Of a stretch of 64,000 nt of DNA, positions 1 to 57,048 are shown one piece after another. A program made the translations under genes and the position numbers. The notes below the pieces were generated by a model. The model was not told the origin of the DNA, did not search any database, and saw nothing but the letters and a program-made list of their open reading frames with translations. This stretch comes from Myxococcales bacterium (lineage in GTDB: Bacteria; Myxococcota_A; UBA9042). The stretch covers positions 8,615 through 72,614 of the forward strand of contig CANMNA010000001.1 in the NCBI GenBank assembly GCA_947499075.1, read 5' to 3'. Positions within the stretch are counted from its first letter, which is position 1. Each line of letters opens with the position of its first letter.

Positions 1-587
1 CGCCAAGGTAAATTCGCGTCGTCGCCAGCGTACGCCACGCCAACCCGCGGCCCCGTGACCACCTGGGCGTCGCCCACCTCATGGCCTGCGGCGATCCACA
101 CGCTAGCACTTTGTCCCAGCGCCTGCCCCGACAGCACCCCGGTCAGGCCCAGCCCTTGGGCAAGCTTGCCCGGCCCGTCCATCCACCGGCGCTCATCCTG
201 CGGCGCAGGCCGCCCAGGACCATAGCCACGCAGCATCGCCATGGTCTGGGCTCCCAGAATCGGCACTGCGCCACGCAGCAACACGGCCTCGCCTACGTCG
301 CGCGCGCCTGTCACGACGTTGCACGCCCAGTGCATGCCGTAGACGAAGTACACGTAAAGTACCCCGCCTTGGGCAAACATCGGCTCGGTGCGAGCGGTCC
401 GTCGCCCCGCGAAGGCATGGCACGCGCGCTCCTGCTCGTGGTACGCCTCGGTCTCGCTGATCCGTGCGACAAGCACCGTTCCGTCTGAGCGGATGCACAC
501 AAGGTCGCGGCCAAGCAAGTCTCGGGCAACCACGAGCGCAGGCCTGTGGAAAAAATGCGGCCCTAGTGGCGCTCGGTCGACGAACAA
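1..587 (-). CDS. mpg: DNA-3-methyladenine glycosylase (Mpg/AAG family); 3' end runs off the window
   Basis: Manual minus-strand translation gives FFHRPALVVARDLLGRDLVCIRSDG...EAYHEQERACHAFAGRRTARTEPMFAQGGVLYVYFVYGMHWACNVV...PRVGVAYAG, the AAG-family signature. It is absent from the ORF track because there is no stop inside the window. An in-frame TGA at 588-590 forces a TTG start at 585-587. Confidence 0.8.
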   Translation of the reverse strand, partial: MFVDRAPLGPHFFHRPALVVARDLLGRDLVCIRSDGTVLVARISETEAYHEQERACHAFAGRRTARTEPMFAQGGVLYVYFVYGMHWACNVVTGARDVGEAVLLRGAVPILGAQTMAMLRGYGPGRPAPQDERRWMDGPGKLAQGLGLTGVLSGQALGQSASVWIAAGHEVGDAQVVTGPRVGVAYAGDDANLPW

Positions 588-588
588 T

Positions 589-609
589 CAGACGCACCCT
601 TTATTCAAC
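589..609 (-). repeat. Dispersed core repeat copy 1 (variant GTTGAATAAAGGGTGCGTCTG)
   Basis: 18/21 match to the consensus GTTGAACAAAGGGTGCGTCCG. It overlaps the stop codon of the 601-2697 CDS and lies directly upstream of the mpg start. Confidence 0.85.
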
Positions 610-2697
610 ATCTTGATTTGGCAGGACAATCGCGTACACGTAGCTGGCTTTGGGGGCCCTGAGCCAGCGCGACCGGATGGTCTCGCGCAGGTCCGACCAG
701 GCGCCTTTGGCTACCACGAACTCGGCCAGCAACCGGTCGGCCTCAGCCCTGTCGCCCCGGGCCTTGATGCCCGCCACGCGCTTCATCAGGCCAGCAACCG
801 CTATCGGCATCTTGGCCATGTCGACCTCAAAGCAGCCACCGTCCTGCCCGTTGGCTGCCACCGTGCTAGAACGCCAAGTCACCGCGCCCGCAGCCTGAAG
901 TGCTCCCAGTTGAATCGCCGCCAACTGGCTGTACGGTTTAGGCTTGCCTTGCGCATCGGCCATGCCATTGCTGATATGGCCCATCGCCCATGCCAAATCG
1001 CTGATGTGCGACTTGTCGCGCTCCGCGGCGGTCAGCAGGCCCTTGCCGACCAGCCAATCGGCCAACCACATCGCCGCTGTCTGCGCTTTGAGTTCCTCCA
1101 AAGTCGCAGCCAGTGGCCCACCGAAGACTTGCCGGTCCTGCTTGCCCTCAACGGCGTACTCGTGGGCTGGCCCCAAATTGTGGGCCGCCTCGTGCAGCAC
1201 CGTGCTCATGCGCTGCGGCTCTGGATCCGGCGAAAACTGCTTGTACATCTGGGGGCACATCAGCGACGCCGCTTGCTCGGTCCAGATTGTCCGGCTATCC
1301 GGATCGGTGCCAATGTTGACCATGGCCACGGTGCGGCCCCGGCCTTCGCTCGCGACGGGGCCCCAGTTGGGCAAGCTCTGGCCAATTGTGGCGCCAAATG
1401 GGCTGCGGGAGTCTCCGGCGTTGAGCACAACCTCGATGAAGTCTGGCAAGTGGAACGCGACCTTGCGTGCTTTGTACGGCGCGCCGGCCAGCGCCGCCAA
1501 CGCCTGCTCCATGTCGTTCTTGACCGGGTCGAGCAGCTTTTGCCACTTGCGGCTGGCCTGATCGATGCGCGCAAAGGACACATGGAAGCCAGCCTTTTGG
1601 CTGCACGGCTCGTGGTAGGTCTCGTCGGGGCCGATACGCAGGTAGAATCGCGAGTTGTCGACGGTCATCGCCGCCCAAGTCTCATCGGCCTTGGTCCAAC
1701 TGCCGTCGCGAAACGCTTGTGCCGCAGCCCGAAGGTACGCGCGAAAGGCGTTTTCCGCAGGATCAGTCAGCGCTTTGGCTGCCGCATCCAACTCAGTAGC
1801 GACAGCAGCCATGTCCGCTGCCCAGGCGACGTGATAGGGCACAGCGGAGAGTTGACCGGCCGCGCTGCGCTGCACCGTGACGAACGGTGCCATCAACTGC
1901 GCGCCATCGGGCCGAGCCGCCAGCTTGTCGCAGAACTGTTTGTCCGTTTGCAGGTCGAGCGGATACAACCCGCTGGTCCGCGTTGGGTGGTCGGCCAAAG
2001 CGCTGCAATTGACATCATTTTCGGTCTTGGGCGCCTCACACCATGGGCCCTGGTTGCGCTGAAACAGTGCCCGGCTCGCCGTATCCGTCGCGGGAATTCG
2101 CGCGGCCGTGTCCACGACACCGCTTTGGCGCGCATACAGTCGCTCGACCGTCGCTGCGGCATTCAGCACGTGCTGCACCATCTCCACGGTCCCGTCGCGG
2201 CGCGCTGCATCGGCAGTAAAATCAGTGACCACAACCGTTGGCCGACCCTGTGCCAGCTCCGCGAGTACCGCAGCCTTGCGGCGCTGTTCTGGATCCGCTG
2301 GGTCTGCGGACGGCGGTCGCGAGGGCTTGCGGTTGTCGATAATGGCGACCGCAGCTGCGGTGGCCACCGCGTCCATCGGTTTTGCCTGGTCGGCACGCCA
2401 CAGCACCAGCACTTCGCCGCGGCCACCTGTTGCTGTTGCAGCTTCGAAAAGGGGTACATTGAGCACTGCGGCCGCACTGTTCCACACAGCACGGCTCAAG
2501 ACGGGCGGACCCAGGGTCGGCGTCGCCGCGTTGGCCAAACCCGCAGCGTTTGCGACGGCCGTGAGCGCCACGGCTCCAGCCGGCGGTTCCATCGCGGCGG
2601 TCGGTGCAGGCTCCTGGGCTGCGACCGGCGCGGGCGGGGCAGGTCGGCTGCATCCTGTGAGCAACAAACAGAGAATCAAGCAGTCGCGCAGTGTCAT
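601..2697 (-). CDS. Secreted zinc-metalloprotease-like lipoprotein (HExxH)
   Basis: The track ORF is 601..2928. I chose the internal ATG at 2697 because it gives MTLRDCLILCLLLTGC, a signal peptide plus lipobox. An HEAAHNLGPAHEY metal-binding-type motif is present. Confidence 0.7.
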   Translation of the reverse strand: MTLRDCLILCLLLTGCSRPAPPAPVAAQEPAPTAAMEPPAGAVALTAVANAAGLANAATPTLGPPVLSRAVWNSAAAVLNVPLFEAATATGGRGEVLVLWRADQAKPMDAVATAAAVAIIDNRKPSRPPSADPADPEQRRKAAVLAELAQGRPTVVVTDFTADAARRDGTVEMVQHVLNAAATVERLYARQSGVVDTAARIPATDTASRALFQRNQGPWCEAPKTENDVNCSALADHPTRTSGLYPLDLQTDKQFCDKLAARPDGAQLMAPFVTVQRSAAGQLSAVPYHVAWAADMAAVATELDAAAKALTDPAENAFRAYLRAAAQAFRDGSWTKADETWAAMTVDNSRFYLRIGPDETYHEPCSQKAGFHVSFARIDQASRKWQKLLDPVKNDMEQALAALAGAPYKARKVAFHLPDFIEVVLNAGDSRSPFGATIGQSLPNWGPVASEGRGRTVAMVNIGTDPDSRTIWTEQAASLMCPQMYKQFSPDPEPQRMSTVLHEAAHNLGPAHEYAVEGKQDRQVFGGPLAATLEELKAQTAAMWLADWLVGKGLLTAAERDKSHISDLAWAMGHISNGMADAQGKPKPYSQLAAIQLGALQAAGAVTWRSSTVAANGQDGGCFEVDMAKMPIAVAGLMKRVAGIKARGDRAEADRLLAEFVVAKGAWSDLRETIRSRWLRAPKASYVYAIVLPNQDVE

Positions 2698-6862: not shown

Positions 6863-6886
6863 AATTGTCCTATTCAAAATCAATGA

Positions 6887-6907
6887 GTTGAACAAAGGGT
6901 GCGTCCG
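6887..6907 (+). repeat. Dispersed core repeat copy 2 (consensus GTTGAACAAAGGGTGCGTCCG)
   Basis: An exact core. The AT-rich left arm AATTGTCCTATTCAAAATCAATGA begins at the prfB stop codon. Confidence 0.9.
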
Positions 6908-6982
6908 AATTCTGTGGCTCCTTGACACCAGCCGAGAATCTTGCGACACCGCGGCGGCGGCCAGCGCCGCAGGAACGTATCG

Positions 6983-9795: not shown

Positions 9796-9813
9796 GAACG
9801 AGCGCCCGCTTGT

Positions 9814-10968
9814 TCAACTGTGCCACTTGGAAACAGGGCTTTCGGCTGGCCTTGTCGCCGCTGACGCCTTGGCAAACTCAATCTCACGCCGCAAGCGCCC
9901 TGTGCGCACACCGCACGGAAACGTATTCGCCGGAAATTCGACGGCCGCCGCTGGCAAGCCCTGCAGCATAAGCGCCGCTTGCTCTGACAACTGCCGCCGA
10001 GCCTGCTGGTAGGCTGCGCAAATCAGCGCGAACGCCTGCTCGAACTCCTCGGCTTGCTGTCTGCAGGCGGCGTGAACGATGAGTGGTCGGCGGCCACGCT
10101 TTTTGGGCAGTTTGGGCTTGGAACGAGGCTCGCGACGTTGTCCCGCGTCGTCGGAACCGTCGTGACCGCGCGGGTCGGTAGCATCGGGGAGGGCCAGGCT
10201 GGGGCCGGCGTTCGAAAGCCCTGCACGGCTTTGACCATCAATAATATCAGTGCGTTGAACAAAGGGTGCGTTTGAATACTTCGCCTCGGCATTCGCCGCA
10301 AGAGCTTGATACTTTTGGAGTTGTTCGAAGGTCGCCAAGTGGTCCCAGCACGGCAGCACGGCCAACTCGACGACCGAATGCGACACGTAGGCTTCGTCCG
10401 CCTTTGGACCGAGTTTGTGCCGCGCGTCGAGGGTCTTCTGGTGGTAGTCAAAGTACCTGCCGACAATGGGCGCCCCTTCGATCAGCGCCCGATTCGTGTT
10501 GGCTCCCCGCCACCCCATCATGCCAAGTTCACCCTTGACCTTAACCGCTTGGCCCATGATGTATGCCAAGCGATTGGCCTGCGTCGTTTCTTCCATGAGC
10601 ACGGGGGTCACTTTGGCGCGCCCGGCGAAGACGGGGCCCTTGCGACCGTTCGCCCGGTTGGCCCAGCGCGCCATGGACGCATGAACATCGTTCAGGAAAT
10701 CGGCCATTGCGTCCGGATCAGGTGCTGCATACAACCCGTGATAATGGTTGCTCATCACGAAATAGGCATAGATCGTTACACCGTGCCGTTGTTGAGCACG
10801 GGCGAAGATGGCGTCAAACGCCGGGCCGATGCTGTCGTGCAAGTCCGGGTCGAATAGGAAGGTGCCGCCGATGGTGCGTGCGGTGACTTCGTAGAGAAGA
10901 GTCGGGTCGTAACATCGAATTGCGCGCATCGGCCACCGTCCCGCAGTTGAGCGCGGGCTGCGTGACAT
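9814..10968 (-). CDS. RAYT-like HUH/Y1 tyrosine transposase (COG1943-type) with a C-terminal extension; contains an in-frame repeat copy
   Basis: The HUH motif is YAYFVMSNHYHGLY. It is followed by ARWANRANGRKGPVFAGRAKV and ANRLAYIMGQ, a candidate catalytic Tyr context. The start could instead be M14 (10929). Codons at 10230-10280 are AT-rich, unlike the rest of the gene. Confidence 0.7.
   Translation of the reverse strand: MSRSPRSTAGRWPMRAIRCYDPTLLYEVTARTIGGTFLFDPDLHDSIGPAFDAIFARAQQRHGVTIYAYFVMSNHYHGLYAAPDPDAMADFLNDVHASMARWANRANGRKGPVFAGRAKVTPVLMEETTQANRLAYIMGQAVKVKGELGMMGWRGANTNRALIEGAPIVGRYFDYHQKTLDARHKLGPKADEAYVSHSVVELAVLPCWDHLATFEQLQKYQALAANAEAKYSNAPFVQRTDIIDGQSRAGLSNAGPSLALPDATDPRGHDGSDDAGQRREPRSKPKLPKKRGRRPLIVHAACRQQAEEFEQAFALICAAYQQARRQLSEQAALMLQGLPAAAVEFPANTFPCGVRTGRLRREIEFAKASAATRPAESPVSKWHS
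10254..10274 (+). repeat. Dispersed core repeat copy 3 (GTTGAACAAAGGGTGCGTTTG), intragenic
   Basis: 19/21 match to the consensus. It lies antisense inside the RAYT-like ORF, where it is translated as NAPFVQR. Confidence 0.85.
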
Positions 10969-11060
10969 GATCGCCGGCCAGCGACTTTTTCCGCGGCCAC
11001 CGACTAAGAATACTGCCCCGAAGTGGTGAGGCGAAAGTCGAGGCCTAGCAATATTAGGCT

Positions 11061-11081
11061 GTTGAACAAAGGGTGGGTTTG
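11061..11081 (+). repeat. Dispersed core repeat copy 4 (GTTGAACAAAGGGTGGGTTTG)
   Basis: 18/21 match to the consensus. It lies 93 nt upstream of the RAYT-like start and 114 nt upstream of the AAA+ gene. Confidence 0.85.
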
Positions 11082-11194
11082 AATTCGCGCCAATTGCGAC
11101 AGCGGCAGACGTGATCGCACCGTGACGCAGTCAGCCGGCCAGCCCCCTTCGCCAAGCCGGCCCGCCGTGCTATGTTCAGCCGCGAGGTAGCCCA

Positions 11195-13387
11195 ATGGCC
11201 AAGTTAAAGTCCCTGCAAATACAACATATTGCAACTCAGGCCGATCCTGCGGCACGCGTGCTGCTGTGCCAGCGCTGGCTGGCCGCCGCCTGCAGCCACA
11301 TGCGCGTGCGGATGGTGATGGCCACGCAGGTACGGCAAGCCAAAGCCGCCGGGTTGACCGAAGACGAAGCGTTGCTGTCCGTCGAGCCCACCCAAGTCGA
11401 GGTCCACCAAGCGCAGCGCAAGGTCGAAGCTGTGGCAGCAGACGCGCATGCTGCCGGCATCCGGCTGCCCATAGATCAGTTGGCACAACAGGCACTTCTG
11501 GACGATGACGACCGTGACATCCTGTTGCTTTCGATCGCTCCGCAAGTCGACGTCGATATTCGGGACGCCGTGGCGCGCTTCAACGACAACTTGTTGGCCA
11601 ACTACGTCGATGTCCGTTTGAGTTTAGAGTTCTTGCGATCCGACACCGTCGATCGGCTCGCCCTGCGCGGGCGGTTTGGCCCGGACGCTACGCTGCGCCG
11701 CACGCGCCTCGTTTCGCTGGAGCGCCGCGATTCGGGTGGCGACAACTTGCTGAGCTACGAAGTCGTACCGGCGCCGCGCGTGTTGCAGCTGCTGCTGGGC
11801 GATCAGGGTCTGCTCGACGTGTCGATGGCTGGCATCGCGACTTTTCACCGCCCGACAGTACGGTTGGACCAAGTCGTGCTTCCGCCAGGCGACCTCGATC
11901 CCTTGCTGACTTTGCTCGATGCGTGGCACCACCGCAGCGCTCAAGCGCTACAGCCCGGCTCGCCGTTTTCGCTGCCGCCTGGTTTGGTCGTCGAGATTTC
12001 CGGACCGCCAGGTACCGGCAAGTCTATGCTTGTCGAAGGTTTGGCCTACCACCTGCAAAAACCAATTCTGGCCATCGACGCGACGCGCCTGAGCGAAATG
12101 GCTGACGTCGATGTCCAGCGCAACTTGTACTCTTCGCTCGACCAAGCGCGCCTGATCGATGCCATGCTGGTCCTTGATGGTGTCGACGGCCTGCTCGCCA
12201 AGGGCAGCTCCAAAGTGGACGTGGTCCAAGATGTCTTGCGTGGCCACCCGGCGCTGACGGTGCTCACGTCACGCGACACAGCGGTCCTCGATCCGAATCT
12301 GGACCGCTTCGTGGTGCAACGCTTGATGCTCGACACGCCTGCTCCTCAAGAGCGAAAGAAAATCTACGACTTGCATTTACCGGACGGCGTAGTGTTTGAG
12401 TCGTCCGACGACGTGATGGCGCTGGCGGGCCAATTCACGTTCCCGGGAGCGCTGATCCGCAATGCCATGCAAGTCGCCGCCAACCGGGCATTTGCCGCGA
12501 GTCCAGATCGCCCTGTGATTTCTTCGGAATTGCTGAAGAAGGCCTGCTACGAGCAGATCCGCGCTAGCTTGGAAGAGTACGCGGTGCGCAAGAAGACCGG
12601 GCTGTCGCTTTCTGACCTCATTGTGCCGCAAGAGACCCGCGACGACATCGAAGAGATGTTCGTGGCCGCCCGCCAGCGCGCACACGTGCTGCACAACTGG
12701 GGGTTTGCCCAGAAAATGTCGACAGGAAAGGGCATCGTCGCCCTGTTTTCTGGTGATCCGGGTACCGGCAAGACGCTGTGCGCAACTATCTTGGCCAACG
12801 AGATGGACCAGCAATTGTTCCAGATTGCGATTCCTCGGGTCGTGAGCAAGTGGATCGGCGAGACCGAAAAGAACATCGAGAAAATCTTCGAAACCGCGCG
12901 CGCGTCGCACGGCATATTGCTGTTTGACGAGGCGGATTCGCTTTTTGCGAGTCGGACCAAGGTCGATTCGAGCGTCGACCGGTACAGCAACATGGCCACC
13001 AACATGTTGCTCCAAGAAATCGAGAACTTCGAGGGCGTGGTCATTCTGACGACCAACCTGGAGAAGAACATCGACAAGGCGTTTCAGCGCCGAATCGGGT
13101 TCAAGATCCACTTTCCGTTTCCAGAAGCTCAGTTTCGGGCGCGGATTTGGCAGACGCTGGTGCCCAAGGCCTGTCCCGTCGATCCGGGTATGGATTGGAC
13201 GGCCCTGGGCCAGCGGTTTGAGCTATCTGGCGGTCACATCAAGAATGCGGTGCTGCGCGGCGCCTACCAAGCTGCGGCTGAGGGCGACGCGATCCGGTTC
13301 AAGCACTTTGAATTCGCGGCACGCCAAGAGTGTAAGAACGCCGGCAAGGTCTTCCGCAGCACCGCTGGCATGGGCGACCTCTTCTAG
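11195..13387 (+). CDS. Two-domain AAA+ ATPase (degenerate first module, classical second module)
   Basis: AAA-1 has GPPGTGKS but the Walker B is LVLDGVD, with no DE. AAA-2 has GDPGTGKT, LLFDEAD, TTN (sensor 1) and FQRR (Arg finger). Confidence 0.85.
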   Translation: MAKLKSLQIQHIATQADPAARVLLCQRWLAAACSHMRVRMVMATQVRQAKAAGLTEDEALLSVEPTQVEVHQAQRKVEAVAADAHAAGIRLPIDQLAQQALLDDDDRDILLLSIAPQVDVDIRDAVARFNDNLLANYVDVRLSLEFLRSDTVDRLALRGRFGPDATLRRTRLVSLERRDSGGDNLLSYEVVPAPRVLQLLLGDQGLLDVSMAGIATFHRPTVRLDQVVLPPGDLDPLLTLLDAWHHRSAQALQPGSPFSLPPGLVVEISGPPGTGKSMLVEGLAYHLQKPILAIDATRLSEMADVDVQRNLYSSLDQARLIDAMLVLDGVDGLLAKGSSKVDVVQDVLRGHPALTVLTSRDTAVLDPNLDRFVVQRLMLDTPAPQERKKIYDLHLPDGVVFESSDDVMALAGQFTFPGALIRNAMQVAANRAFAASPDRPVISSELLKKACYEQIRASLEEYAVRKKTGLSLSDLIVPQETRDDIEEMFVAARQRAHVLHNWGFAQKMSTGKGIVALFSGDPGTGKTLCATILANEMDQQLFQIAIPRVVSKWIGETEKNIEKIFETARASHGILLFDEADSLFASRTKVDSSVDRYSNMATNMLLQEIENFEGVVILTTNLEKNIDKAFQRRIGFKIHFPFPEAQFRARIWQTLVPKACPVDPGMDWTALGQRFELSGGHIKNAVLRGAYQAAAEGDAIRFKHFEFAARQECKNAGKVFRSTAGMGDLF

Positions 13388-13391
13388 GATA

Positions 13392-13412
13392 CGGACGCAC
13401 CCTTTGTTCAAC
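13392..13412 (-). repeat. Dispersed core repeat copy 5 (exact consensus)
   Basis: Reads CGGACGCACCCTTTGTTCAAC on the plus strand. CTAG lies at 13384-13387 and 13412-13415 on either side. Confidence 0.9.
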
Positions 13413-13551
13413 TAGCTGAATTTACAGCGACCGTTCGGCCGTTGCCGCCCGAACGCAATCTCGGTACCATGACGCACCGCGTCACGTGTTCGTGCACGCG
13501 ATTCCCGTCGCCACTTTTCCGCCGGCCCACGCGCCGACCACCGAGCCACTG

Positions 13552-16397: not shown

Positions 16398-16562
16398 GTG
16401 CGCCTCCGTGCCGCTAGGGCGGCGCGACTGTACCGTGCATCACCCGGTAGCGTCGAGAGACGGCGGGCGCCTTTGGCGCTAGACTGCCGGCACCGACGGT
16501 TTCGACCCGATCTTGGCTCAAGGGTCCCTGAGTCAGCCGCCTCTGTCCAACACTTACAGGTA

Positions 16563-16618
16563 GTTGAACAAAGGGTGCGTCCGTAATTCTTCCGTAATTC
16601 TAACAAAGGGTGCGTCCG
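16563..16618 (+). repeat. Dispersed core repeat copies 6a/6b (full core plus tandem partial core)
   Basis: GTTGAACAAAGGGTGCGTCCGTAATTCT-TCCGTAATTCT-AACAAAGGGTGCGTCCGTAATTCT shows internal tandem duplication of the element. Confidence 0.9.
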
Positions 16619-16629
16619 TAATTCTCTTT

Positions 16630-20927: not shown

Positions 20928-20934
20928 AACTAAC

Positions 20935-20956
20935 CGACGCATCCTTTGTTCAGAAC
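20935..20956 (-). repeat. Dispersed core repeat copy 7 (degenerate: CCGACGCATCCTTTGTTCAGAAC on plus)
   Basis: Lies 7 nt after the pmbA-like stop. Its AT-rich arm ATTGAAATAGTTGATTATTCT resembles the long arm of copies 1 and 2. Confidence 0.7.
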
Positions 20957-21068
20957 ATTGAAATAGTTGATTATTCTGGCGACGGTGGCCTGTCGCTGTC
21001 ACGGTCACGGTCAGCAGACACCGGGTGGGCGCAAACTTGCCGCACCCCTGACGTGACTGCCGCAATTC

Positions 21069-21088
21069 GTACGCGCCCTTTGTTCAAG
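21069..21088 (-). repeat. Dispersed core repeat copy 8 (degenerate: GTACGCGCCCTTTGTTCAAG on plus)
   Basis: Lies 11 nt beyond the stop of the minus-strand MFS gene and in the same orientation as that gene. A half-copy, CTGAACAAATGAG, is adjacent. Confidence 0.7.
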
Positions 21089-21099
21089 TGCTCATTTGT

Positions 21100-22467
21100 T
21101 CAGCCCCTTTCTTGGTCCCTCAGGCCGCCGCCCGTGGCTTCGCTGGCGAGTTTTTGCTTGCCCATGCCCAACAAGAGCGGCAGGGCCACCAAAGCCAGCG
21201 CCGCGTCGAGCGCCAGCGTATTGGGGTAGCCCCAGTGCTCGGCCGCCCAGCCCTGCCACTTGGCGCTCAATCCAATCGACAAGTTCAGCAACGCCATGTA
21301 CGCGGTGAACTGCGTGGCAGCCACCGCAGGCGTCGTGACGTCCATGAACAACGCGGTGCGCACGCCATACATCAGTCCTTGCGGCACCGCGTACAGCAGG
21401 CTCGCCATCCACAACGCGGAGACCAAGCCAGCCGGAATCGGCGGTCGCTGCTTGGCGTCGAGTGCTACTGGCATCAGCCACCCCGCAGCTTGCATTTTCC
21501 AGGCCAGATACGCCGTTGGCACGGCCGTCGCCCCCAGAAACAGCGCCAGCATCTTGCGCCGACCGAACCGATCCGAGATGTGCCCGCCTGCGACACAGCA
21601 CAGCGCGGAGATAACTGTTGAGGCAAGGCTCATGGTCGCGATCTGGTCGTCTGCAAGCCCCAGCTCGACACACAGGTTGGACTGAAGCGCCAGCGACAGG
21701 GCCATCGCTCCCGCCGGCAACAGCGCAAAGGCCACCGCTAGCAGTGCCGCGCGCGAGCCGATAAACGCAAAGAACGTATCTTTGGCAAACTTGCCAATTT
21801 CGCGCCTAATTTGTGCAAGCCGCGGGCCTGCAGTCACCGCGCGCGGCGGATAAGGTGGCTCCTTGAGGCGCCACGAGACCAGCACGGTGACCACCAGGAT
21901 CGACGCGCCCACCAGCAAGAAGCTCGCCTTGAGCGCCGCTTGAGGCCCAAGCGCCTGCTGGAGCGACTCGCGCAGGTAGAGCACACCGGCACCGCCGACC
22001 GCCTGACCCGCGTAGGCGCCCGCGAACATCAGGCCATTGGCTACGCCGCGCTCCTCTTCGGGCAGAACATGGCACGCCAGCGCGTCAATCGCCACGTCTT
22101 GGGTGGCGCCAAACAGGTTGTGGACAAAGATTAGCGCGGTAAACATCGTGAGATCTTTGGCGATGTCCACGCCCATCGCCAGTAACAACGTGCCCACCAT
22201 GAGCAATTGGGCGCCGACGATCCACGCCCGGCGTCGGCCAAATTTGTCTGGCGCGACGACATCGACGATGGGGCCGATCGCCCACTTCCATGCCCACGGC
22301 AAGTACAAGGACGCGACGAAGCCGCCGATGGCAGCTGGACCCAAGCCCATGCGGCGCATCTCGGTGGCAATCGCGGTGGCGGTAAAGCCAAGCGGGATGC
22401 CCTCGGTGAGGTACAGGCAGAACAGAGTCGACAGGCGGCCGCGCCGCGTTTGCAACGGGTGGAGCAT
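21100..22467 (-). CDS. AmpG/PAT-family MFS transporter
   Basis: LSTLFCLYLTEGIPLGFTATAIATEMRRMGLGPAAIGGFVASLYLPWAWKWAIGPIVD is an AmpG-like N-terminus. I chose the start at MLHPLQTRRG. Confidence 0.8.
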   Translation of the reverse strand: MLHPLQTRRGRLSTLFCLYLTEGIPLGFTATAIATEMRRMGLGPAAIGGFVASLYLPWAWKWAIGPIVDVVAPDKFGRRRAWIVGAQLLMVGTLLLAMGVDIAKDLTMFTALIFVHNLFGATQDVAIDALACHVLPEEERGVANGLMFAGAYAGQAVGGAGVLYLRESLQQALGPQAALKASFLLVGASILVVTVLVSWRLKEPPYPPRAVTAGPRLAQIRREIGKFAKDTFFAFIGSRAALLAVAFALLPAGAMALSLALQSNLCVELGLADDQIATMSLASTVISALCCVAGGHISDRFGRRKMLALFLGATAVPTAYLAWKMQAAGWLMPVALDAKQRPPIPAGLVSALWMASLLYAVPQGLMYGVRTALFMDVTTPAVAATQFTAYMALLNLSIGLSAKWQGWAAEHWGYPNTLALDAALALVALPLLLGMGKQKLASEATGGGLRDQERG

Positions 22468-22522
22468 GGCGGTAGCGTTGACGCCGTGCGGCAGGCTGTC
22501 AAGTCTGCGGCGAGGAGGCGCG

Positions 22523-24952
22523 GTGCGCCACGGCTGGCTGTTCCTGTGCGCGCTTGCGGTGGTCCTCGCCCAACCTGCCGCGGCGTTGCTGCCGCCGCCC
22601 ATGCCGCTGATGGTGCGCGTCGCCGCCAACGGTCAGTCGGCGGCGGTGTTTGACCACAAGTACGGCGCGCTCAACAGCTGGTGGGTCCGACCTTACCAAA
22701 GCTTCGCACCAGGCAAGCCGACCGTCGACGTGCTCCACGACCTGTTTTGGGGGCTGGCGCCGGTGGTGGACGGCAAGGTCGGCAAGGGCACCTGGGCGCC
22801 CCAGATGCCGCTAAGCCTAGGCACCAAGCCTTGGCAGCCCAGCGACGGGATCAACGACACGGTCTTTGGCTATTGGGGGGCGACCGGCATCGTGCGCGAG
22901 ACGCGGCTGTGGCCCGGTCCCCCGCCAGTTGCGCTGACGACATTGGTGTTTGCGCCGATGACCGCGCCGGGGCGGTGTCTGGCCGTGCTGGCCCGGGTCG
23001 CCAGCTTGAGCCAAAGTGGGCCGATCAAGCAGGACTTCACGCTGGCGCTGCTGGTGAACCTGCACATGGGCAGCGGGTCGCCCCATGCCGGCAGTGACGC
23101 GGAGCAGTTGGAGATCGCGGGGCCGGGGACCCTGCTGGAGCGTGGCCTGAACACCGACCACCATGCGCTGGTGCGCGGCCTCGCGCCCTGGGACGGCACG
23201 CCAACCGTGCAGAACATCTACGCGCCCTTCCAATTGGGCGTGCCACTGCAGTTGGGCGAGGTCGGCAAGGCGGTTGGCAACGACTTGGTCGGCGCACTGG
23301 TCGTCAACGGGCTGTCCTTGAGCCCGCTTGGCCAAACCTTGACCGGTGCACTGGTGTGCTATGACTCGACCGACGTCGCCGCCCCTGACATCCATGCTTG
23401 GCTCGCCGGTCGCAATGCCGAGCAATTGCTTGCCGACGAGCAAGCTTGGTGGCAGAAGTGGCACGCAGTAGCGCCTTTGCCCATCGCGCTGCCGGACAAC
23501 GAGGTGCTCACGTTTCAGCGCCAACTGACCTTGCTCAAGATGGCGCAGTGCCAACAGCCCGAATTGGTCGGACCCTGGCAAGGGCAGACGCCCTTTGGCC
23601 AGATCGTCGCGAGCTTGCCGCCGGGCGAGTGGAACATCACGTGGCCGCGCGACCAGAGTTACGCGGGCGTGGCGCTGGCGGCGAGCGGTCACTTGCCGGA
23701 GGCGAAGGCCGCGCTTGCGTTCGTGCTGCAAGGCAAAGCGGGCCAGTTTCAGGCTCAAGTCGGCGCTCCGTATCGGGTGTCTGTCACGCGCTACTTTGGC
23801 GGTGGCCTGGAGGAAAGCGACAGCAACGAGGACGGTCCCAACATCGAACTGGACGGCTTTGGCTTGGTGCTGTGGCAGGCCGCGCGCTACGTCCAAGCGG
23901 CCAATGACGTCGACTTCGTGGCCAAGTGGTGGCCTGACTTGCGCGATCTGGTCGCCGCGCCGTTGCTGCAGGCCATCGACGCCACGGGTCTGATCAAGCC
24001 TGATTCGTCGATTTGGGAAGTGCACTGGAACGGTAAGCAAAAGCACTTTGCCTACACGTCGATCGCTGCCGTGCGCGGCCTGTGCGGTGCTGCTCAGCTG
24101 GCGACGGTGGCGGGGCAGGGCGCGCTGGCCGCCCAGTATCGGCAGCAGGCGACCCAGTTGCGCGATGCGATTGTGGCCAACCTGGCGCCGGCGGGTACCT
24201 ACCTGCGTGGCAACGTGGAGGAACCGCCTCAGACCGCCGCCGATCTGGCGGCGATTGAAGCGCTGCTCGACGGCCAGATTGCGCCGTGGGGGCCGGTCGC
24301 CCAGTCGAGCTGGAACAAGTGGCGCAAGACGTTGCAGGCGGGCAGCGGACCCGGTTTTGTGCGCAACGACGACGGCGGATGGTACGACAGCCAAGAGTGG
24401 CTGTTCATCGACCTGCGGGTGCTGCACTGGATGGAGCGCGCGCTGTCGGCGGGCGCGCCGCTGCAGGCCGAGCGCGACGAACTGCGCAAGCGCGTGCTGC
24501 AAGTCGCGGCTGCGGGTGGCGGGCTTGTCCCGGAGCTTGTCCAGACCACCGGCACCGGCGCAGGCCAGTTTGCCGGCGCGCTGCCCATGATGGGCTTTGG
24601 CGCTGGGGTGCTGGCCTTAGTTCTGGGCGGTGAGGCGTATGGCGACGACCTGGCGGCTTGCGTCGGGGCACCGGCGAGTCCGGCGGCAGTCGCGGTGGCC
24701 GACAACGTGGCTGATGCTGCGGCCGATGCGGCGGTCGCCGATGTGGCCGCGGCACCAGAACCCGTTGCTGCCGACAGCCCAGCCGCAGACGCGGCCAGCC
24801 TAGGCGCCGCGTCAGACCTCGCTTCGCCGGCCATTCCTCAGGTTCAGTCGGCCACAGCACGTGGATGTGCGGGCGCGCCACGCGGTGCCAGCGGGTGGAC
24901 GCTGGCCTGGGCCATTTGCGTGGCTTGGCTGGCAATGCGGCGTAAATCTTGA
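22523..24952 (+). CDS. GH15-like (glucoamylase-family) secreted glycoside hydrolase with a MYXO-CTERM-like tail
   Basis: I chose the GTG at 22523: AGGAGG lies 5 nt upstream and it gives the signal peptide RHGWLFLCALAVVLAQPAAA. ITWPRDQSYAGVALA and SSIWEVHW are GH15-like. The C-terminus is GCAGAPRGASGWTLAWAICVAWLAMRRKS. Confidence 0.75.
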   Translation: MRHGWLFLCALAVVLAQPAAALLPPPMPLMVRVAANGQSAAVFDHKYGALNSWWVRPYQSFAPGKPTVDVLHDLFWGLAPVVDGKVGKGTWAPQMPLSLGTKPWQPSDGINDTVFGYWGATGIVRETRLWPGPPPVALTTLVFAPMTAPGRCLAVLARVASLSQSGPIKQDFTLALLVNLHMGSGSPHAGSDAEQLEIAGPGTLLERGLNTDHHALVRGLAPWDGTPTVQNIYAPFQLGVPLQLGEVGKAVGNDLVGALVVNGLSLSPLGQTLTGALVCYDSTDVAAPDIHAWLAGRNAEQLLADEQAWWQKWHAVAPLPIALPDNEVLTFQRQLTLLKMAQCQQPELVGPWQGQTPFGQIVASLPPGEWNITWPRDQSYAGVALAASGHLPEAKAALAFVLQGKAGQFQAQVGAPYRVSVTRYFGGGLEESDSNEDGPNIELDGFGLVLWQAARYVQAANDVDFVAKWWPDLRDLVAAPLLQAIDATGLIKPDSSIWEVHWNGKQKHFAYTSIAAVRGLCGAAQLATVAGQGALAAQYRQQATQLRDAIVANLAPAGTYLRGNVEEPPQTAADLAAIEALLDGQIAPWGPVAQSSWNKWRKTLQAGSGPGFVRNDDGGWYDSQEWLFIDLRVLHWMERALSAGAPLQAERDELRKRVLQVAAAGGGLVPELVQTTGTGAGQFAGALPMMGFGAGVLALVLGGEAYGDDLAACVGAPASPAAVAVADNVADAAADAAVADVAAAPEPVAADSPAADAASLGAASDLASPAIPQVQSATARGCAGAPRGASGWTLAWAICVAWLAMRRKS

Positions 24953-24954
24953 TA

Positions 24955-24975
24955 GTTGAACAAAGGGTGCGTCCG
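24955..24975 (+). repeat. Dispersed core repeat copy 9 (exact consensus)
   Basis: Starts 2 nt after the GH15 stop (TGA TAG TTGAAC...). Confidence 0.9.
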
Positions 24976-25041
24976 TTATTTTCGCGCTGCCGTGGCCGTG
25001 ATAGCCTGCTCGCTGGCGCGGTCCACGCGCTCTGGAGCCCC

Positions 25042-38531: not shown

Positions 38532-38600
38532 TCGCCGACAGTCGTTCCAAGCCGCAACGCGCGCAAGCGCAAGAAGCGTTGAAAGTCAAAGAGGGTTACG

Positions 38601-38930: not shown

Positions 38931-39046
38931 GGGTCCAACGAGTCCTCCCAATCCTTCAGACGTCGGCTAAGTGAGCTGGCGCAGGTTGGAGGGGAACCCA
39001 AGGTTCGAGAAGAACACGCGCACTCAGCCGCGCGAATGAGAAACCG

Positions 39047-39589: not shown

Positions 39590-39684
39590 CCGAGTCAACC
39601 GTCGAAACGAAGTAGCACACCAGCACCAGGGCAACACAGACCGCAGCGACCCAGCCCGAAGTGACTGGGCACAGAGAGCGAAAA

Positions 39685-52459: not shown

Positions 52460-53704
52460 TTGCGCCGGGCAGGCATTGACCGATCATGTCCCAGCGGTCA
52501 AACCTGCGGGCCGCCCAGCCGCGCACCGACTGGCATCGGCTTGTCCAGCATGCTTGGCCATTTGCGATACAACCTTGGCATCCTGCGGACCCTGATCGCG
52601 TGGTCCGAGCCGGCGTCGCCAGCCCCCACACCAGCAGTGAGCATCGCCGATACCGACACGGCAACCGGCAGCGGCGATATCTCCGCGCTCGATTTCGGCG
52701 TGCCCGACACACCGGTCGGCCGCGGTGCCTGCCCCGGCAGCCCCGGGTGCGCCTGCGCGAGCAACGAGGAATGCAGCACCGGCGTCTGCGCCGACAGCGC
52801 AGACACGGCCACCGGCAAGGCGTGTGCGTTCCCGTTTGGCAGCGGGTGTGCATCGGCCTTCATCGCCGTAACCGCACAGGTCGGCGAAGGGACAACGGTT
52901 TGCGTGCCGTCCGCGCCAAAGCTGTGCAACCCGTTCGAAAAAGACGACGACTGCAAGGCGACCGGCGGCACCGGAGCGCTGTGCATCGACCGCGGCGCCA
53001 GTGGTCGGTTCTGTGGCATTGCGTGTCCGGCATTCGGTTGCCCTGCCGGCTACGCGTGCCAGGACGCAATGAGCATAGGTTGGGCTAAGGCCCAGCAATG
53101 TCAGAGTTCCGAACAAACGGCGGGTCCGGTAGATTGCGGGTGTGCCGCCGCCGCCATTGGGCAGAAGCTGGCGACGCCATGCGGCGTCGTCGGCAAGGAC
53201 GCAGCAGGCAAAGTCATGGGTACCCGCGCAGGTCAGCGCTCCTGTGGCGCCTCGGGTCTGGGTGCGTGCGCGGGTAAGACTGCGCAAGCGGAAGCCTGCA
53301 ACGGCCAAGACGACGACTGCAACGGCAAGACCGACGCCAACGCACCGTGCGACAACGGGTTGCCGTGCACCTTCGGAGACGACTGCACCGGCGGCACCCG
53401 CCAACCGGGTTCTAGGGTCGTCTGTAACGACAAGAACGACTGCACCGACGACAACTGTGACCCCAAGTCCGGCAAGTGCGTGTTTGCTGCGGTGACCACG
53501 ACTATCGCCTGCGACGACGGCGACCCCTGTGCCAGTGGCGAGGGCTGCGCGGGCGGCGTCTGCCAGAACGGCGTCGCCAAAGCGTGCAGCGGTGGGACGT
53601 GCACGGTGGGGCAATGCAGCAAGACCAGCGGTCAGTGCCAGTTCGCTGACAAGCCCGACGGCAGCCCATGCGCTCAGGCGGAGCCTGTCTGCCTGGGGCC
53701 GTAA
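52460..53704 (+). CDS. Cys-rich-repeat protein, upstream part (probably one gene with 53668..54483, interrupted by a frameshift)
   Basis: Contains CNDKNDCTDDNCDPKSGKC-type modules. The start is uncertain and I saw no clear signal peptide. It ends in the middle of a repeat module. Confidence 0.55.
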   Translation: MRRAGIDRSCPSGQTCGPPSRAPTGIGLSSMLGHLRYNLGILRTLIAWSEPASPAPTPAVSIADTDTATGSGDISALDFGVPDTPVGRGACPGSPGCACASNEECSTGVCADSADTATGKACAFPFGSGCASAFIAVTAQVGEGTTVCVPSAPKLCNPFEKDDDCKATGGTGALCIDRGASGRFCGIACPAFGCPAGYACQDAMSIGWAKAQQCQSSEQTAGPVDCGCAAAAIGQKLATPCGVVGKDAAGKVMGTRAGQRSCGASGLGACAGKTAQAEACNGQDDDCNGKTDANAPCDNGLPCTFGDDCTGGTRQPGSRVVCNDKNDCTDDNCDPKSGKCVFAAVTTTIACDDGDPCASGEGCAGGVCQNGVAKACSGGTCTVGQCSKTSGQCQFADKPDGSPCAQAEPVCLGP

Positions 53705-55653: not shown

Positions 55654-57048
55654 ATGACCAAGCCCAAAAAGCCCACCAAAGCGCCGCCCCAATCGGGCGA
55701 GCGCCTGCAAAAAGTCCTCGCGCGCTGTGGTGTTGCATCGCGTCGCGCCGCCGAAGAGCTGATCACCCAAGGCCGCATTGAGGTCAACGGCCATGTCGTG
55801 ACCACGCTGGGCACGCGCGTCGATCCGCTGGTGGCAGAGATCCGCTTGGATGGCGAGCGGTTGCGCATGCCTTCGGAGCGGCTGGTGCTGGTGCTGAACA
55901 AGCCCGTGGGCTACCTGAGCGCGGCCAAGGATCCCGAGGGTCGGCCGTTGGTCTATCACTTGGTCCCGACCAAGCTGGCGCTGCGCTCGATCGGGCGGTT
56001 GGACTTCAACACCGAGGGCGTGCTGCTATTCACCAACGATGGCGACCTGGCCGAGCGGTTGGGCCACGCCCGCCATGCGATTCAGCGTGTCTACGAGGCG
56101 CGGGTCCGCGGTATCCCCGATCAGGAGACGCTGGCGCGGCTGCGTCTGGGCGTGCGGTTGGAAGATGGTCCGGCGCGGGCGGAGCAAGTCGATGTCGTCA
56201 AGCAGACTGAGGCCAACGCCTGGCTGCGCTTGACGCTGCTGGAAGGCCGCAACCGCGAAGTCCGGCGCTTGCTTGAGCGCGTGGGCCATCCGGTGGTGCG
56301 GTTGCGCCGGATCTCGTTTGCGGGCGTGACGGCGCAGGGTCTGGCCCAAGGGCAATGGCGGTTGCTGGACGATCGAGAAATCAACCAGTTGCAACAGAAA
56401 GGCCACGTCGGCGGCTTTGCGCTGCCCCCCGATCCGCGCAAGGGCGAAGTCTCCAAGCCGCGGTTGAGCACCGGTCCGGGGCCTCAATCGACGCCGCAGC
56501 GCCGGGGTGCTGACCGCCATGCCAGCGCAACGGCCGGGCAGCCCGACGCCCGCAGTGCGCCGGTTGAAAACAACCGCCCGCCCCGCAACCCCGGTACCCG
56601 GCCCGACAAGCCTGCGGCAGCACGCGGTGGCGGTCGACCCGCGGCTGACCGCCCCGGCCGCCCCGGCGACGCGCGGGCCAGACCCGACAACGCGCCGGCC
56701 AGACCCGACAACGCGCGGGCCAGACCCGACAACGCGCGGGCCAGACCTGACAACGCGCGGGCCAGACCTGACAACGCGCGGGCCAGACCTGACAACGCGC
56801 GGGCCAAGCCTGACAACGCGCGGGCCAAGCCTGACAACGCGCGGGCCAAGCCTGACAACGCGCGGGCCAAGCCTGACAACGCGCGGGCCAAGCCTGACAA
56901 CGCGCGGGCCAAGCCTGACAACGCCCGCGCCAAACCCGATAACCGGCGGTCTGGACCGCCCGACGGCAAACGTCCCGGTCGACCCGACAACCGCCGCGGC
57001 CGCAGCAACGAGTTGCCGCCCGCCCCACCACCCAGGAGAAGTCGGTGA
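55654..57048 (+). CDS. rluB: 23S rRNA pseudouridine synthase, RluB/RsuA family, with a long repetitive basic tail
   Basis: The S4 domain reads RLQKVLARCGVASRRAAEELI. The catalytic region reads IGRLDFNTEGVLLFTNDGDL. The C-terminal tail is ARPDNAR/AKPDNAR repeats. Confidence 0.85.
   Translation: MTKPKKPTKAPPQSGERLQKVLARCGVASRRAAEELITQGRIEVNGHVVTTLGTRVDPLVAEIRLDGERLRMPSERLVLVLNKPVGYLSAAKDPEGRPLVYHLVPTKLALRSIGRLDFNTEGVLLFTNDGDLAERLGHARHAIQRVYEARVRGIPDQETLARLRLGVRLEDGPARAEQVDVVKQTEANAWLRLTLLEGRNREVRRLLERVGHPVVRLRRISFAGVTAQGLAQGQWRLLDDREINQLQQKGHVGGFALPPDPRKGEVSKPRLSTGPGPQSTPQRRGADRHASATAGQPDARSAPVENNRPPRNPGTRPDKPAAARGGGRPAADRPGRPGDARARPDNAPARPDNARARPDNARARPDNARARPDNARARPDNARAKPDNARAKPDNARAKPDNARAKPDNARAKPDNARAKPDNARAKPDNRRSGPPDGKRPGRPDNRRGRSNELPPAPPPRRSR
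56677..56949 (+). repeat. 21-bp x13 in-frame tandem repeat (GCCAGACCCGACAACGCGCGG and variants)
   Basis: Units start at 56677 and recur every 21 nt. They fall into blocks of AGACCC (3), AGACCT (3) and AAGCCT (6), plus 1 degenerate unit. Confidence 0.95.

What the first reader, a model, noticed from the sequence alone, without database searches (positions are those of the whole stretch)
9814..11081. RAYT-like HUH/Y1 transposase gene carries one repeat copy in-frame and a second just upstream: candidate cognate enzyme
**The gene.** The 384-aa ORF has the HUH motif (VMSNHYHGLY) and the downstream ...RLAYIMGQ... segment, typical of COG1943/REP-associated tyrosine transposases. That family assignment is established knowledge; my placement of this ORF in it is by eye.

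**Repeat copies.** In known systems RAYT genes are flanked by the REPs they act on. Here one core copy lies 93 nt upstream of the start (11061-11081). Another (10254-10274) lies inside the ORF, antisense, translated as YSNAPFVQRTDIIDGQ.

**Evidence for an insertion.** The inserted stretch uses ACT GAT ATT ATT GAT GGT CAA, AT-rich codons foreign to the rest of the gene. The sequence on both sides keeps GC-rich third positions. This fits an in-frame insertion of about 48 nt into a linker rather than a chance ORF fusion.

**Departures from the classical picture.** Both copies are in the same orientation, not inverted, and the core lacks a hairpin.
Basis: partly seen in the sequence, partly recalled or inferred. 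Interest (0 to 1): 0.7.

Follow-up and report, generated by a model that had tools for sequence, protein, structure and literature searches.

The report
Transposase-like gene carrying its own repeat
A single-copy gene for a long, unannotated relative of the IS200/REP-associated tyrosine transposases is flanked by a short repeat that is scattered through this genome and also carries one in-frame copy of it, and relatives show that this inner copy is ancient and kept at the DNA level, which points to a function and not a chance insertion.

Summary
The core CACCCTTTGTTCAAC occurs 9 times (up to 2 mismatches) in the window against 0.09 expected. The full element is about 45 nt and has 11-12 copies.

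The ORF (9814-10929, minus strand) has the Y1/HUH fold, an invariant H-Y-H and an invariant Y136xxxQ140. It scores below the curated Pfam and NCBIfam cut-offs and fits none of the published TnpA-Y1 subclass signatures.

In more than 15 homologous loci (36-83% identity) the same layout recurs:
- one sense copy about 150 nt upstream of the start;
- one sense, same-frame copy at the start of a disordered inter-domain linker;
- one inverted copy just after the stop.

It is degenerate, lies at 9799-9830 and supplies the stop codon.

The inner copy is not a private or recent insertion. It follows each lineage's own core variant (TTGTTCAA/G, TTGTGTCAG, TTTCACAAC, AGTGTCTG). It is conserved as DNA, not as peptide: Val is GTT in 14 of 14 cases against 16% elsewhere.

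In this genome the repeat does not fold into a hairpin. In one relative it is a perfect 10-12 bp hairpin.

In-frame REP copies inside tnpA-REP genes have been reported (subclass 2.4). A positionally conserved, co-varying copy has not, so this is a new variant of a known kind.

The parts
9814..10929 (-). Gene for a 371-aa long Y1/HUH (IS200/RAYT-like) protein. The ORF is open from the ATG at 10968, but homologues and the database entry P0001 start at M14 (10929).
   Evidence: N-terminal domain (residues 15-231) is modelled with high confidence, the linker (239-290) is disordered, and the C-terminal helix (303-335) is confident.
10738..10746 (-). HUH motif, H75-Y76-H77 (cat tat cac).
   Evidence: Invariant in the 21-sequence alignment A1. 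Sequence read.
10549..10563 (-). Catalytic-type Tyr136 and Gln140 (YIMGQ, the Y---Q signature).
   Evidence: Y136 is invariant and Q140 nearly invariant. YIMGQ[AG] is the commonest form in the wider family.
10234..10280 (-). Internal, in-frame, sense copy of the repeat, encoding SNAPFVQRTDIIDGQ at the start of the inter-domain linker.
   Evidence: 37.5 bits; GC3 0.20; GTT 14/14 across homologues; low pLDDT.
11038..11086 (-). Upstream copy, in the same orientation as the gene, about 140 nt before the M14 start.
   Evidence: The position relative to the start is conserved in homologues.
9799..9830 (+). Degenerate inverted copy (CGAGCGCCCGCTTGTTCAACT...) overlapping the gene's TGA stop codon (9814-9816).
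   Evidence: It corresponds to the inverted downstream copy seen 60-100 nt after the stop in homologues.
584..633 (+). Dispersed copy. It overlaps the last codons and the TAA stop of the 698-aa gene 601..2697(-).
6868..6913 (-). Dispersed copy in the spacer between the RF-1-like gene and gcvT.
13386..13433 (+). Dispersed copy directly after the stop of the 730-aa AAA+ gene.
16540..16623 (-). Dispersed copy (16540-16588) plus nested partial 5' halves (16602-16623 and beyond).
20929..20978 (+). Dispersed copy (TTCAGA variant) in a convergent spacer.
21063..21108 (+). Dispersed copy, diverged.
24932..24981 (-). Dispersed copy at the end of gene 22037..24952(+).
29273..29322 (-). Dispersed copy in a divergent spacer.
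53086..53130 (-). Weak, diverged possible copy.
   Evidence: E = 0.02

Best explanation
**What it is.** This is a REPtron-like unit. It consists of a single-copy gene for a long (about 370 aa), previously unclassified Y1/HUH single-strand-DNA transposase relative, together with its cognate dispersed repeat of about 45 nt. The window consensus of the repeat is aaTTaCGGACGCACCCTTTGTTCAACtnnCTGAtaTT.

**Layout, shared by the whole clade.**
- One copy in gene orientation about 150 nt upstream of the start.
- One in-frame sense copy at the start of the disordered linker between the catalytic domain and a C-terminal helical domain.
- One inverted copy just past (here, overlapping) the stop codon.

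**How it most likely works (inferred by analogy with TnpA-REP and IS200/IS605 TnpA; nothing here was tested biochemically).** The HUH histidines and Gln140 hold a divalent metal. Tyr136 cleaves and rejoins single-stranded DNA at or next to the conserved core. This activity generates and maintains the dispersed copies.

**The inner copy.** It is an old part of the unit, not a recent hit. It is kept identical to the lineage's current repeat variant by a constraint acting on the nucleic acid. That fits either a cis site for the enzyme (autoregulation or a protected template) or continual overwriting by the enzyme. The evidence here cannot say which.
For: **Protein.**
- HUH and Y---Q are invariant.
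- AF2 model: pLDDT 79, pTM 0.74.
- Foldseek top 29 hits are IS200/IS605 TnpA and TnpA-REP 4ER8 (TM 0.68 over 155 columns).
- Weak Pfam and NCBIfam hits.

**Repeat.**
- 9 matches against 0.09 expected; 10-12 copies by profile search.
- Copies lie in convergent, co-directional and divergent spacers and in both orientations, so it is not a promoter.

**Association.**
- The upstream / internal / inverted-downstream layout is seen in L001, L003, L004, L019, L022-L032 and others.
- The window's own inverted copy lies at the stop codon.

**Co-variation.** The internal copy follows the lineage's variant in four independent forms:
- TTGTTCAA or TTGTTCAG; the synonymous CAA/CAG choice matches the local repeats in 14 of 16 loci.
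- GCACCCTTGTGTCAGA, 16/16 identical between the two upstream copies and the internal copy in L034.
- TTCACAACAT in L005, a paralogue from the same MAG as L003, which uses TTGTTCAGA.
- AGTGTCTG...TTGAAAT in L058.
- A permutation test of same-locus against other-locus identity gives p about 5e-5.

**DNA-level constraint.**
- Val is GTT in 14/14 homologues against 16% GTT elsewhere in the same genes, P = 7e-12.
- The preceding codon ends in T in 16/17, although its amino acid varies (F, N, T, G, S, A, I).

**Palindrome in a relative.** L020 copies are 10-12 bp hairpins, z -3.4 to -4.3 for three of the four (-1.6 for the fourth).
Against: - No biochemical evidence exists for any member of this family.
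- In this genome the repeat has no hairpin, whereas all characterised Y1 transposases recognise folded ssDNA.
- The protein fails the curated cut-offs of Y1_Tnp (20.3 against 23 bits) and REP_Tyr_transpos (27 against 80 bits).
- Genome-wide copy number of the gene and of the repeat could not be measured. The source genome is not in the GTDB representative set.
- No presence/absence polymorphism of copies was seen among three assemblies of the same population, so mobility is not shown.
- The loci are related to one another, so the co-variation statistics overstate independence.
- One distant homologue, L036 (32% identity), has flanking inverted repeats but no detectable inner copy.
Confidence: 0.65

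Rival explanations
1. **Tolerated passenger.** A REP-like copy once landed in a disordered linker where it does no harm, as described for subclass 2.4 tnpA-REP genes. It has no function of its own. It resembles the local repeats only through gene conversion or repeated excision and re-insertion at the same target.
For: - In-frame REP insertions inside tnpA-REP genes and in unrelated genes are documented and are interpreted as neutral when they lie in loops or linkers (PMC6006769).
- The peptide lies in a low-confidence linker.
- The window's inner and upstream copies share a private CAAAC variant, which suggests local conversion.
- L036 lacks an inner copy.
Against: - Every one of the 19 homologues of 36-83% identity examined has the copy at the same position, in the same orientation and frame. 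No empty site was seen.
- The surrounding linker cannot be aligned, yet the core is kept with GTT 14/14.
- Subclass 2.4 insertions are described as variable in length, sequence and place. This one is not.
Confidence: 0.25
2. **Autonomous insertion sequence.** The whole block (upstream copy, gene, inverted downstream copy) is an IS200/IS605-like or TIR-bounded insertion sequence. The short dispersed copies are its solo ends or MITE-like derivatives.
For: - The Y---Q signature is that of class 1 IS200 transposases.
- The unit sits in unrelated gene neighbourhoods in different genomes.
- The upstream and downstream copies each have their own conserved extensions, like left and right ends.
- One MAG holds at least three paralogues.
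Against: - There is only one gene copy in the window.
- Paralogues in the same MAG are only about 40-50% identical, with no near-identical copies.
- Short repeats outnumber the gene by more than 10 to 1.
- The protein is about 370 aa with extra domains, against about 150 aa for IS200 TnpA.
- No tnpB partner is present.
Confidence: 0.07
3. **Operator of a DNA-binding regulator.** The repeat is the operator of a host or domesticated regulator. The Y1-like protein is merely one regulated gene, or the regulator itself, with no DNA cleavage involved.
For: - L020 copies are perfect inverted repeats of the CTGAAC/GTTCAG type, like a dimeric operator.
- The upstream copy lies at a fixed distance from the start codon, followed by a leader with conserved blocks.
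Against: - Copies lie at 3' ends of genes, in convergent spacers and inside a coding region, in either orientation.
- Two paralogues in one genome each pair with a different repeat variant, as expected for cognate enzyme and substrate pairs.
- The catalytic residues are invariant.
- No sigma-70-like promoter is found at the gene.
Confidence: 0.03

Closest known systems
REPtrons: TnpA-REP / RAYT (class 2 TnpA-Y1) with flanking REP/REPIN sequences (Nunvar 2010; Bertels & Rainey 2011; Ton-Hoang 2012; Quentin et al. 2018, PMC6006769; Corneloup et al. 2021, PMC8266576)
   Same: - Low-copy Y1/HUH gene flanked by inverted copies of a short repeat that is dispersed in intergenic spacers.
- Each paralogue is paired with its own repeat variant.
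- Enzyme and repeat co-evolve.
   Different: - Y---Q instead of the class-2 Y---NP signature.
- About 370 aa with an added subdomain (residues 144-231), a disordered linker and a C-terminal helical domain.
- No GT[AG]G foot.
- The repeat is not palindromic in this genome.
- Far below the NCBIfam RAYT cut-off.
Subclass 2.4 (and some 2.8) tnpA-REP genes with in-frame REP insertions (Quentin et al. 2018, PMC6006769)
   Same: Copies of the cognate repeat lie inside the transposase gene without breaking the reading frame, in a surface or flexible region.
   Different: [quoted passage not shown]
- Here there is a single copy at one conserved position after the catalytic domain.
- Here the frame and orientation are the same in all close homologues, conservation is at the DNA level, and the copy co-varies with the lineage's repeats.
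Class 3 TnpA-Y1 (Planctomycetes, Acidobacteria, Proteobacteria; Quentin et al. 2018)
   Same: - Glutamine, not Asn-Pro, after the catalytic Tyr.
- Flanked by atypical, weakly structured repeats that can be abundant.
- Described as intermediate between an IS and a REPtron.
   Different: - Class 3 has NHVH and Y----Q (Gln at +5), with a median length of 178 aa.
- Here the motifs are NHYH and Y---Q (Gln at +4), with about 370 aa.
- The CnGA foot reported for class 3 is present in only 14 of 48 copies here.
IS200/IS605 TnpA (class 1.1; IS608, ISDra2)
   Same: - Best structural matches.
- Y---Q metal-ligand signature.
   Different: - IS200/IS605 TnpA is about 150 aa and core-only, multi-copy and near-identical within a genome.
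- It has subterminal hairpins on one strand and is often paired with tnpB.
- None of these features is seen here.

Membership tests
Y1/HUH transposase superfamily (TnpA-Y1; Pfam PF01797) | [quoted passage not shown] | tested here: met
   H75-Y-H77 is invariant in 21 homologues. NHYH is the commonest form in the wider family.
Y1/HUH transposase superfamily (TnpA-Y1; Pfam PF01797) | Single catalytic Tyr on a helix, with a polar metal ligand (Q or N) about 4 residues downstream. | tested here: met
   Y136 is invariant and Q140 nearly invariant, on helix 127-143 of the model.
Y1/HUH transposase superfamily (TnpA-Y1; Pfam PF01797) | The fold of IS200/IS605 TnpA. | tested here: met
   Foldseek probability 1.0 and E down to 7e-6 to ISDra2 and IS608 TnpA and to 4ER8.
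Y1/HUH transposase superfamily (TnpA-Y1; Pfam PF01797) | Score at or above the curated Pfam gathering threshold. | tested here: not met
   20.3 bits against a cut-off of 23, E = 6e-4. One of 10 wider-family members passes.
RAYT / TnpA-REP (class 2; NCBIfam NF047646) | Y---NP signature and a score above the equivalog cut-off. | tested here: not met
   The motif is YIMGQA. The score is 27.1 bits against a cut-off of 80.
RAYT / TnpA-REP (class 2; NCBIfam NF047646) | Gene flanked by copies of a dispersed repeat in inverted orientation (REPtron). | tested here: met
   In the window: upstream copy 11038-11086(-) and degenerate inverted copy 9799-9830(+). The arrangement is clear in L001, L003, L004, L019, L023-L032, L005, L058 and L036.
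RAYT / TnpA-REP (class 2; NCBIfam NF047646) | The repeat is a palindrome (hairpin) with a 5' GT[AG]G foot. | tested here: not met
   Window copies give no significant fold and have no GTAG or GTGG foot. Three of the four intergenic L020 copies are clear hairpins (z -3.4 to -4.3; the fourth forms the same stem at z -1.6), but without the GT[AG]G foot.
RAYT / TnpA-REP (class 2; NCBIfam NF047646) | Single or low gene copy number per genome, with vertical inheritance. | not testable with these tools
   There is one copy in the 64-kb window. The source genome is not in the searchable genome set. Little synteny is seen between loci.
IS200/IS605 insertion sequence | Several near-identical copies, a core-only transposase of about 150 aa, subterminal hairpins, and often tnpB. 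| tested here: not met
   The protein is 371 aa with extra domains. Paralogues in one MAG are 40-53% identical. No tnpB-like neighbour is present.
Class 3 TnpA-Y1 (Quentin et al. 2018) | NHVH, Y----Q, and a CnGA foot on flanking structures. | tested here: not met
   The motifs here are NHYH and Y---Q. CnGA is at the expected place in 14 of 48 copies.

The most novel reading that the evidence does not exclude
The in-frame copy is an obligatory, functional cis element of a new class of long Y1/HUH enzymes. It would be a nucleic-acid site embedded in the enzyme's own coding sequence that the enzyme, or transcripts of the dispersed copies, acts on. One possibility is negative feedback that senses repeat copy number. 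Another is a selection-protected master template from which the dispersed family is renewed. Either would explain why the copy is kept at one position, in one frame, with DNA-level conservation and lineage-specific co-variation over more than 60% protein divergence.
Probability: 0.35. Interest if true: 0.8.

Novelty: new variant of a known kind. Interest (0 to 1): 0.62.

Why it matters
**The open question.** How REP/REPIN families are made, kept uniform and kept in check by their single-copy transposase is still unresolved. So is why such domesticated transposases persist at all.

**What this system offers.**
- The enzyme's own gene holds a conserved copy of its substrate. That gives a built-in handle for experiments: recode the copy, or swap variants between paralogues, to test autoregulation, master-copy dynamics or enzyme-driven homogenisation.
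- It adds a sizeable family to the Y1/HUH landscape. At least 324 clusters at 50% identity score E < 1e-10. All of the few members that carry a source name (four) are annotated as hypothetical proteins, and the family is largely invisible to the curated models (1 of 11 members tested passes Pfam's cut-off).
- It shows that the cognate repeat can be a plain non-palindromic half-site in one genome and a perfect hairpin in a relative. This bears on how these enzymes recognise DNA.

Tried and rejected
- **Promoter or operator reading.** Copies lie in convergent, co-directional and divergent spacers, in both orientations and at 3' gene ends. There is no sigma-70-like site at the gene. By eye the repeat does not fit sigma-54 spacing. 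The L020 palindrome shares half-sites with the Myxococcus LexA box as I recall it from memory, but the spacing is wrong.
- **Known RNA family.** Rfam finds nothing in the window at gathering thresholds.
- **Hairpin in window copies.** None is significant.
- **Genome-wide count.** The 18-mer scan of GTDB representative genomes gave only 8 singletons in unrelated taxa. This is chance level, and the source genome is absent from that set.
- **Evidence of mobility.** Three assemblies of the same population are 99.995-100% identical over the region, with no copy polymorphism.
- **Synteny among homologous loci.** Essentially none, apart from L006 and L027, which share an upstream gene.
- **Class 3 CnGA foot.** Only 14 of 48 copies have it. 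The supplementary tables of PMC6006769 held nothing searchable on it.
- **Conserved RNA structure in the 150-nt leader.** Sequence blocks are conserved but there is no covariation.
- **PDB sequence search with the family profile.** Only E about 0.2 to ISDra2 TnpA. The fold search was needed.
- **Inner copy in very distant homologues.**
  - L036 and L035 have none detectable.
  - L007 shares only a 12-mer between its upstream region and its linker, which is borderline.
Full report
**1. Observation**

The ORF 9814..10968 on the minus strand (384 aa) is there as described, with VMSNHYHGLY and RLAYIMGQ. The identical database protein P0001 and all homologues begin at M14 (ATG at 10929), giving 371 aa.

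The core CACCCTTTGTTCAAC has 9 matches with up to 2 mismatches in the 64-kb window. The expectation is 0.09, and none of 100 shuffles reaches 9. Aligning the copies shows a longer element of about 45 nt: aaTTaCGGACGCACCCTTTGTTCAACtnnCTGAtaTT.

A profile built from ten copies recovers them at E 4e-12 to 4e-7. It also finds a partial copy at 16602-16623 and a weak one at 53086-53130. The inner copy (10234-10280) scores 37.5 bits, as high as the intergenic ones.

The 15 codons the inner copy contributes have GC3 0.20 against 0.71 for the rest of the gene.

None of the ten window copies folds better than shuffled sequence as single-stranded DNA (z -0.9 to +1.6). The only other TTGTTCAAC in the window, at 9810-9818 on the plus strand, is an inverted, degenerate copy (CGAGCGCCCGC-TTGTTCAACT). 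Its complement supplies the gene's TGA stop.

**2. The protein**

Curated models see it only weakly:
- Y1_Tnp scores 20.3 bits against a cut-off of 23.
- REP_Tyr_transpos scores 27 bits against a cut-off of 80.
- A family profile against PDB sequences reaches only E about 0.2 to ISDra2 TnpA.

The AlphaFold model built from 21 homologues is good: pLDDT 79 and pTM 0.74. Residues 15-231 and 291-350 are confident, and residues 239-290 are disordered.

The best structural matches are all IS200/IS605 transposases, plus E. coli TnpA-REP (4ER8), which aligns over 155 columns at TM 0.68.

H75, H77 and Y136 are invariant and Q140 nearly so. So this is a Y1/HUH enzyme with an intact catalytic set, an added subdomain (about residues 144-231), a disordered linker and a C-terminal helical domain.

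An exhaustive phmmer search finds 1248 cluster representatives at E < 1e-3. Of these, 324 are below 1e-10 and only 16 below 1e-30. Most are 300-400 aa with NHYH and Y(I/L)xxQ(A/G).

All four close homologues that carry a source name are called 'hypothetical protein', from Myxococcales or Deltaproteobacteria MAGs.

Compared with the published classification of TnpA-Y1 proteins (PMC6006769, Table 1), the combination of NHYH, Y---Q and this length matches none of the 12 subclasses.

**3. What the repeat is not**

Using gene calls for the same contig, copies lie in two convergent, five co-directional and two divergent spacers. They occur in both orientations relative to their neighbours, and several overlap the last codons of a gene. 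That rules out a promoter or a simple operator. No sigma-70-like site is found at the gene, and Rfam finds nothing in the window.

**4. Link between gene and repeat**

I fetched homologous loci through exact-protein look-ups and one metagenome scan. The window-derived profile finds related repeats in them.

The layout is the same again and again:
- a sense copy about 150 nt before the start codon;
- a sense copy about 670 nt into the gene;
- an inverted copy 60-100 nt after the stop.

This is seen in L001/L029, L003, L004/L023, L019, L022, L024-L028, L030 and L032. This is the REPtron arrangement, and the window conforms to it once the degenerate inverted copy at the stop codon is counted.

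In L020 the intergenic copies are perfect hairpins, CTGAACAAAG-N5-CTTTGTTCAG (z -3.4 to -4.3 for three of the four, -1.6 for the fourth). The right arm of that hairpin is the core that is conserved in the window. The G-run and C-run forms seen in other genomes are the two readings of the hairpin loop. The family is therefore REP-like in a relative, but it has lost the left arm in the window's genome.

**5. The inner copy is ancestral and constrained as DNA**

In the protein alignment the linker cannot be aligned, except for an island (G)G(F)VQxxEIAxQS at the place of the window's APFVQRTDIIDGQS.

At that site Val is GTT in 14 of 14 homologues, against 16% GTT among the other Val codons of the same genes (P = 7e-12). 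The preceding codon ends in T in 16 of 17, even though it encodes F, N, T, G, S, A or I. The conserved object is therefore nT-GTT-CAR, not a peptide.

The inner copy also follows the local repeat variant:
- The synonymous CAA or CAG agrees with the locus's own repeats in 14 of 16 loci.
- In L025 the inner copy shares CCACCATTT(G/A)TTCAAGTCCATG with four dispersed copies.
- In L034 (36% identity) two upstream copies and the inner copy share GCACCCTTGTGTCAGA, 16 of 16, turning APFVQ into APLCQ.
- In L005 the inner copy, the inverted downstream copy and four dispersed copies carry TTCACAACAT. The paralogue L003 from the same MAG uses TTGTTCAGA.
- In L058 (37% identity) the upstream, inner and inverted downstream copies share AGTGTC..(N)..TTGAAAT.

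Reading frame and orientation are the same in all of these. Same-locus identity exceeds other-locus identity (0.487 against 0.441, permutation p about 5e-5). Relatedness among the loci inflates this significance.

One 32%-identity homologue (L036) has flanking inverted 15-mers but no detectable inner copy.

**6. Interpretation**

- *Shown:* a Y1/HUH-fold protein with an intact catalytic signature; a dispersed repeat; a conserved three-copy architecture around and inside the gene; and DNA-level conservation and co-variation of the inner copy.
- *Inferred from established knowledge of TnpA-REP and IS200/IS605 TnpA (PMC6006769, PMC8266576):* the protein binds and cleaves single-stranded copies of the element through a phosphotyrosine intermediate, and is responsible for their spread and upkeep.
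- *Not resolved:* what the inner copy does.

A neutral 45-nt passenger in a disordered linker should have decayed like its surroundings, and it has not. Either it is selected as a cis site, or it is continually renewed by the enzyme. A cis site could act through autoregulation on DNA or mRNA; the mRNA would carry two sense copies and one antisense copy. It could also be a protected master copy. I give the REPtron-like reading with a constrained inner copy 0.65, the pure tolerated-passenger reading 0.25, an autonomous IS 0.07 and an operator reading 0.03.

**7. Comparison with what is known**

In-frame REP copies inside tnpA-REP genes have been reported for subclass 2.4 and some members of 2.8. 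[quoted passage not shown]

The phenomenon as such is therefore not new. What is new:
- the protein clade;
- the fixed position, frame and orientation of the copy;
- its conservation at the nucleotide level;
- its co-variation across at least four core variants;
- a cognate repeat that is non-palindromic in this genome.

The protein fails the membership tests for classical RAYTs (Y---NP, GT[AG]G foot, palindrome, HMM cut-off), for IS200/IS605 elements and for class 3. It is best filed as a new variant of the REPtron kind.

**8. Limits**

- There is no biochemistry for any member of the family.
- Genome-wide counts were not possible, because the source genome is absent from the searchable genome set.
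- No copy-number polymorphism is seen among three assemblies of the same population.
- The true ends and target site of the element are undefined.

Noticed in passing
window 2825-3050 and 26327-26552: A 226-bp direct repeat, 93% identical and apparently non-coding. It is unrelated to the short repeat.
   Followed up: partly
window 16588-16640 (-): Nested or tandem partial 5' halves of the repeat sit just upstream of a full copy: GAATTACGGACGCACCCTTTGTT / AGAATTACGGA / AGAATTACGGACGCACCCTTTGTTCAAC. This could mark cleavage or insertion points within the element.
   Followed up: no
window 601-603, 9814-9816, 24950-24952: Three genes end inside repeat copies, so the repeat supplies or displaces the native stop codon. 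They are the 698-aa gene (TAA in a mutated core), the Y1-like gene (TGA in the inverted core) and the gene 22037..24952.
   Followed up: partly
window 10930-11037 and the equivalent about 150 nt in L001, L003, L004, L006, L019, L020, L024, L026-L028, L032: The leader between the upstream copy and the start codon keeps sequence blocks (TTTTCGCC, CCGCGG, CGATCAC, GCGC..GCCGCGC) across homologues of 40-80% protein identity. RNAalifold finds no covarying structure.
   Followed up: partly
L004 8375-8420, L023, L024, L026-L030, L032 (region between the stop codon and the inverted copy): The downstream inverted copy has its own conserved extension, CTGAyTACATTGnnTTCTCCnCGGCGC. On the gene strand this reads GGAGA-N6-ATG followed directly by a stop codon (ATGTAA, ATGTGA or ATGTAG), that is, a start-stop pair behind a Shine-Dalgarno-like motif.
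   Followed up: no
L005 15850-16130: Three tandem copies of the TTCACAAC repeat variant, spaced 113-124 nt apart.
   Followed up: no
L020 1337-1397: P0014 has a second repeat copy read in frame near its C-terminus (NTKVAFVQVIDVKDIF), in addition to the linker copy (STKVAFVHHPNIANEV). Both have a 7-bp ACAAAGG/CCTTTGT stem.
   Followed up: partly
window 56650-56943 and 51509-51621: Tandem repeats with a 21-nt period. The first lies inside ORF 55654..57048(+).
   Followed up: no
window 31164-49000: A dense run of small plus-strand genes that looks like the ribosomal-protein/EF-G region (assigned by ORF sizes only). Its tight spacing probably explains why repeat copies are nearly absent from the second half of the window.
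   Followed up: no
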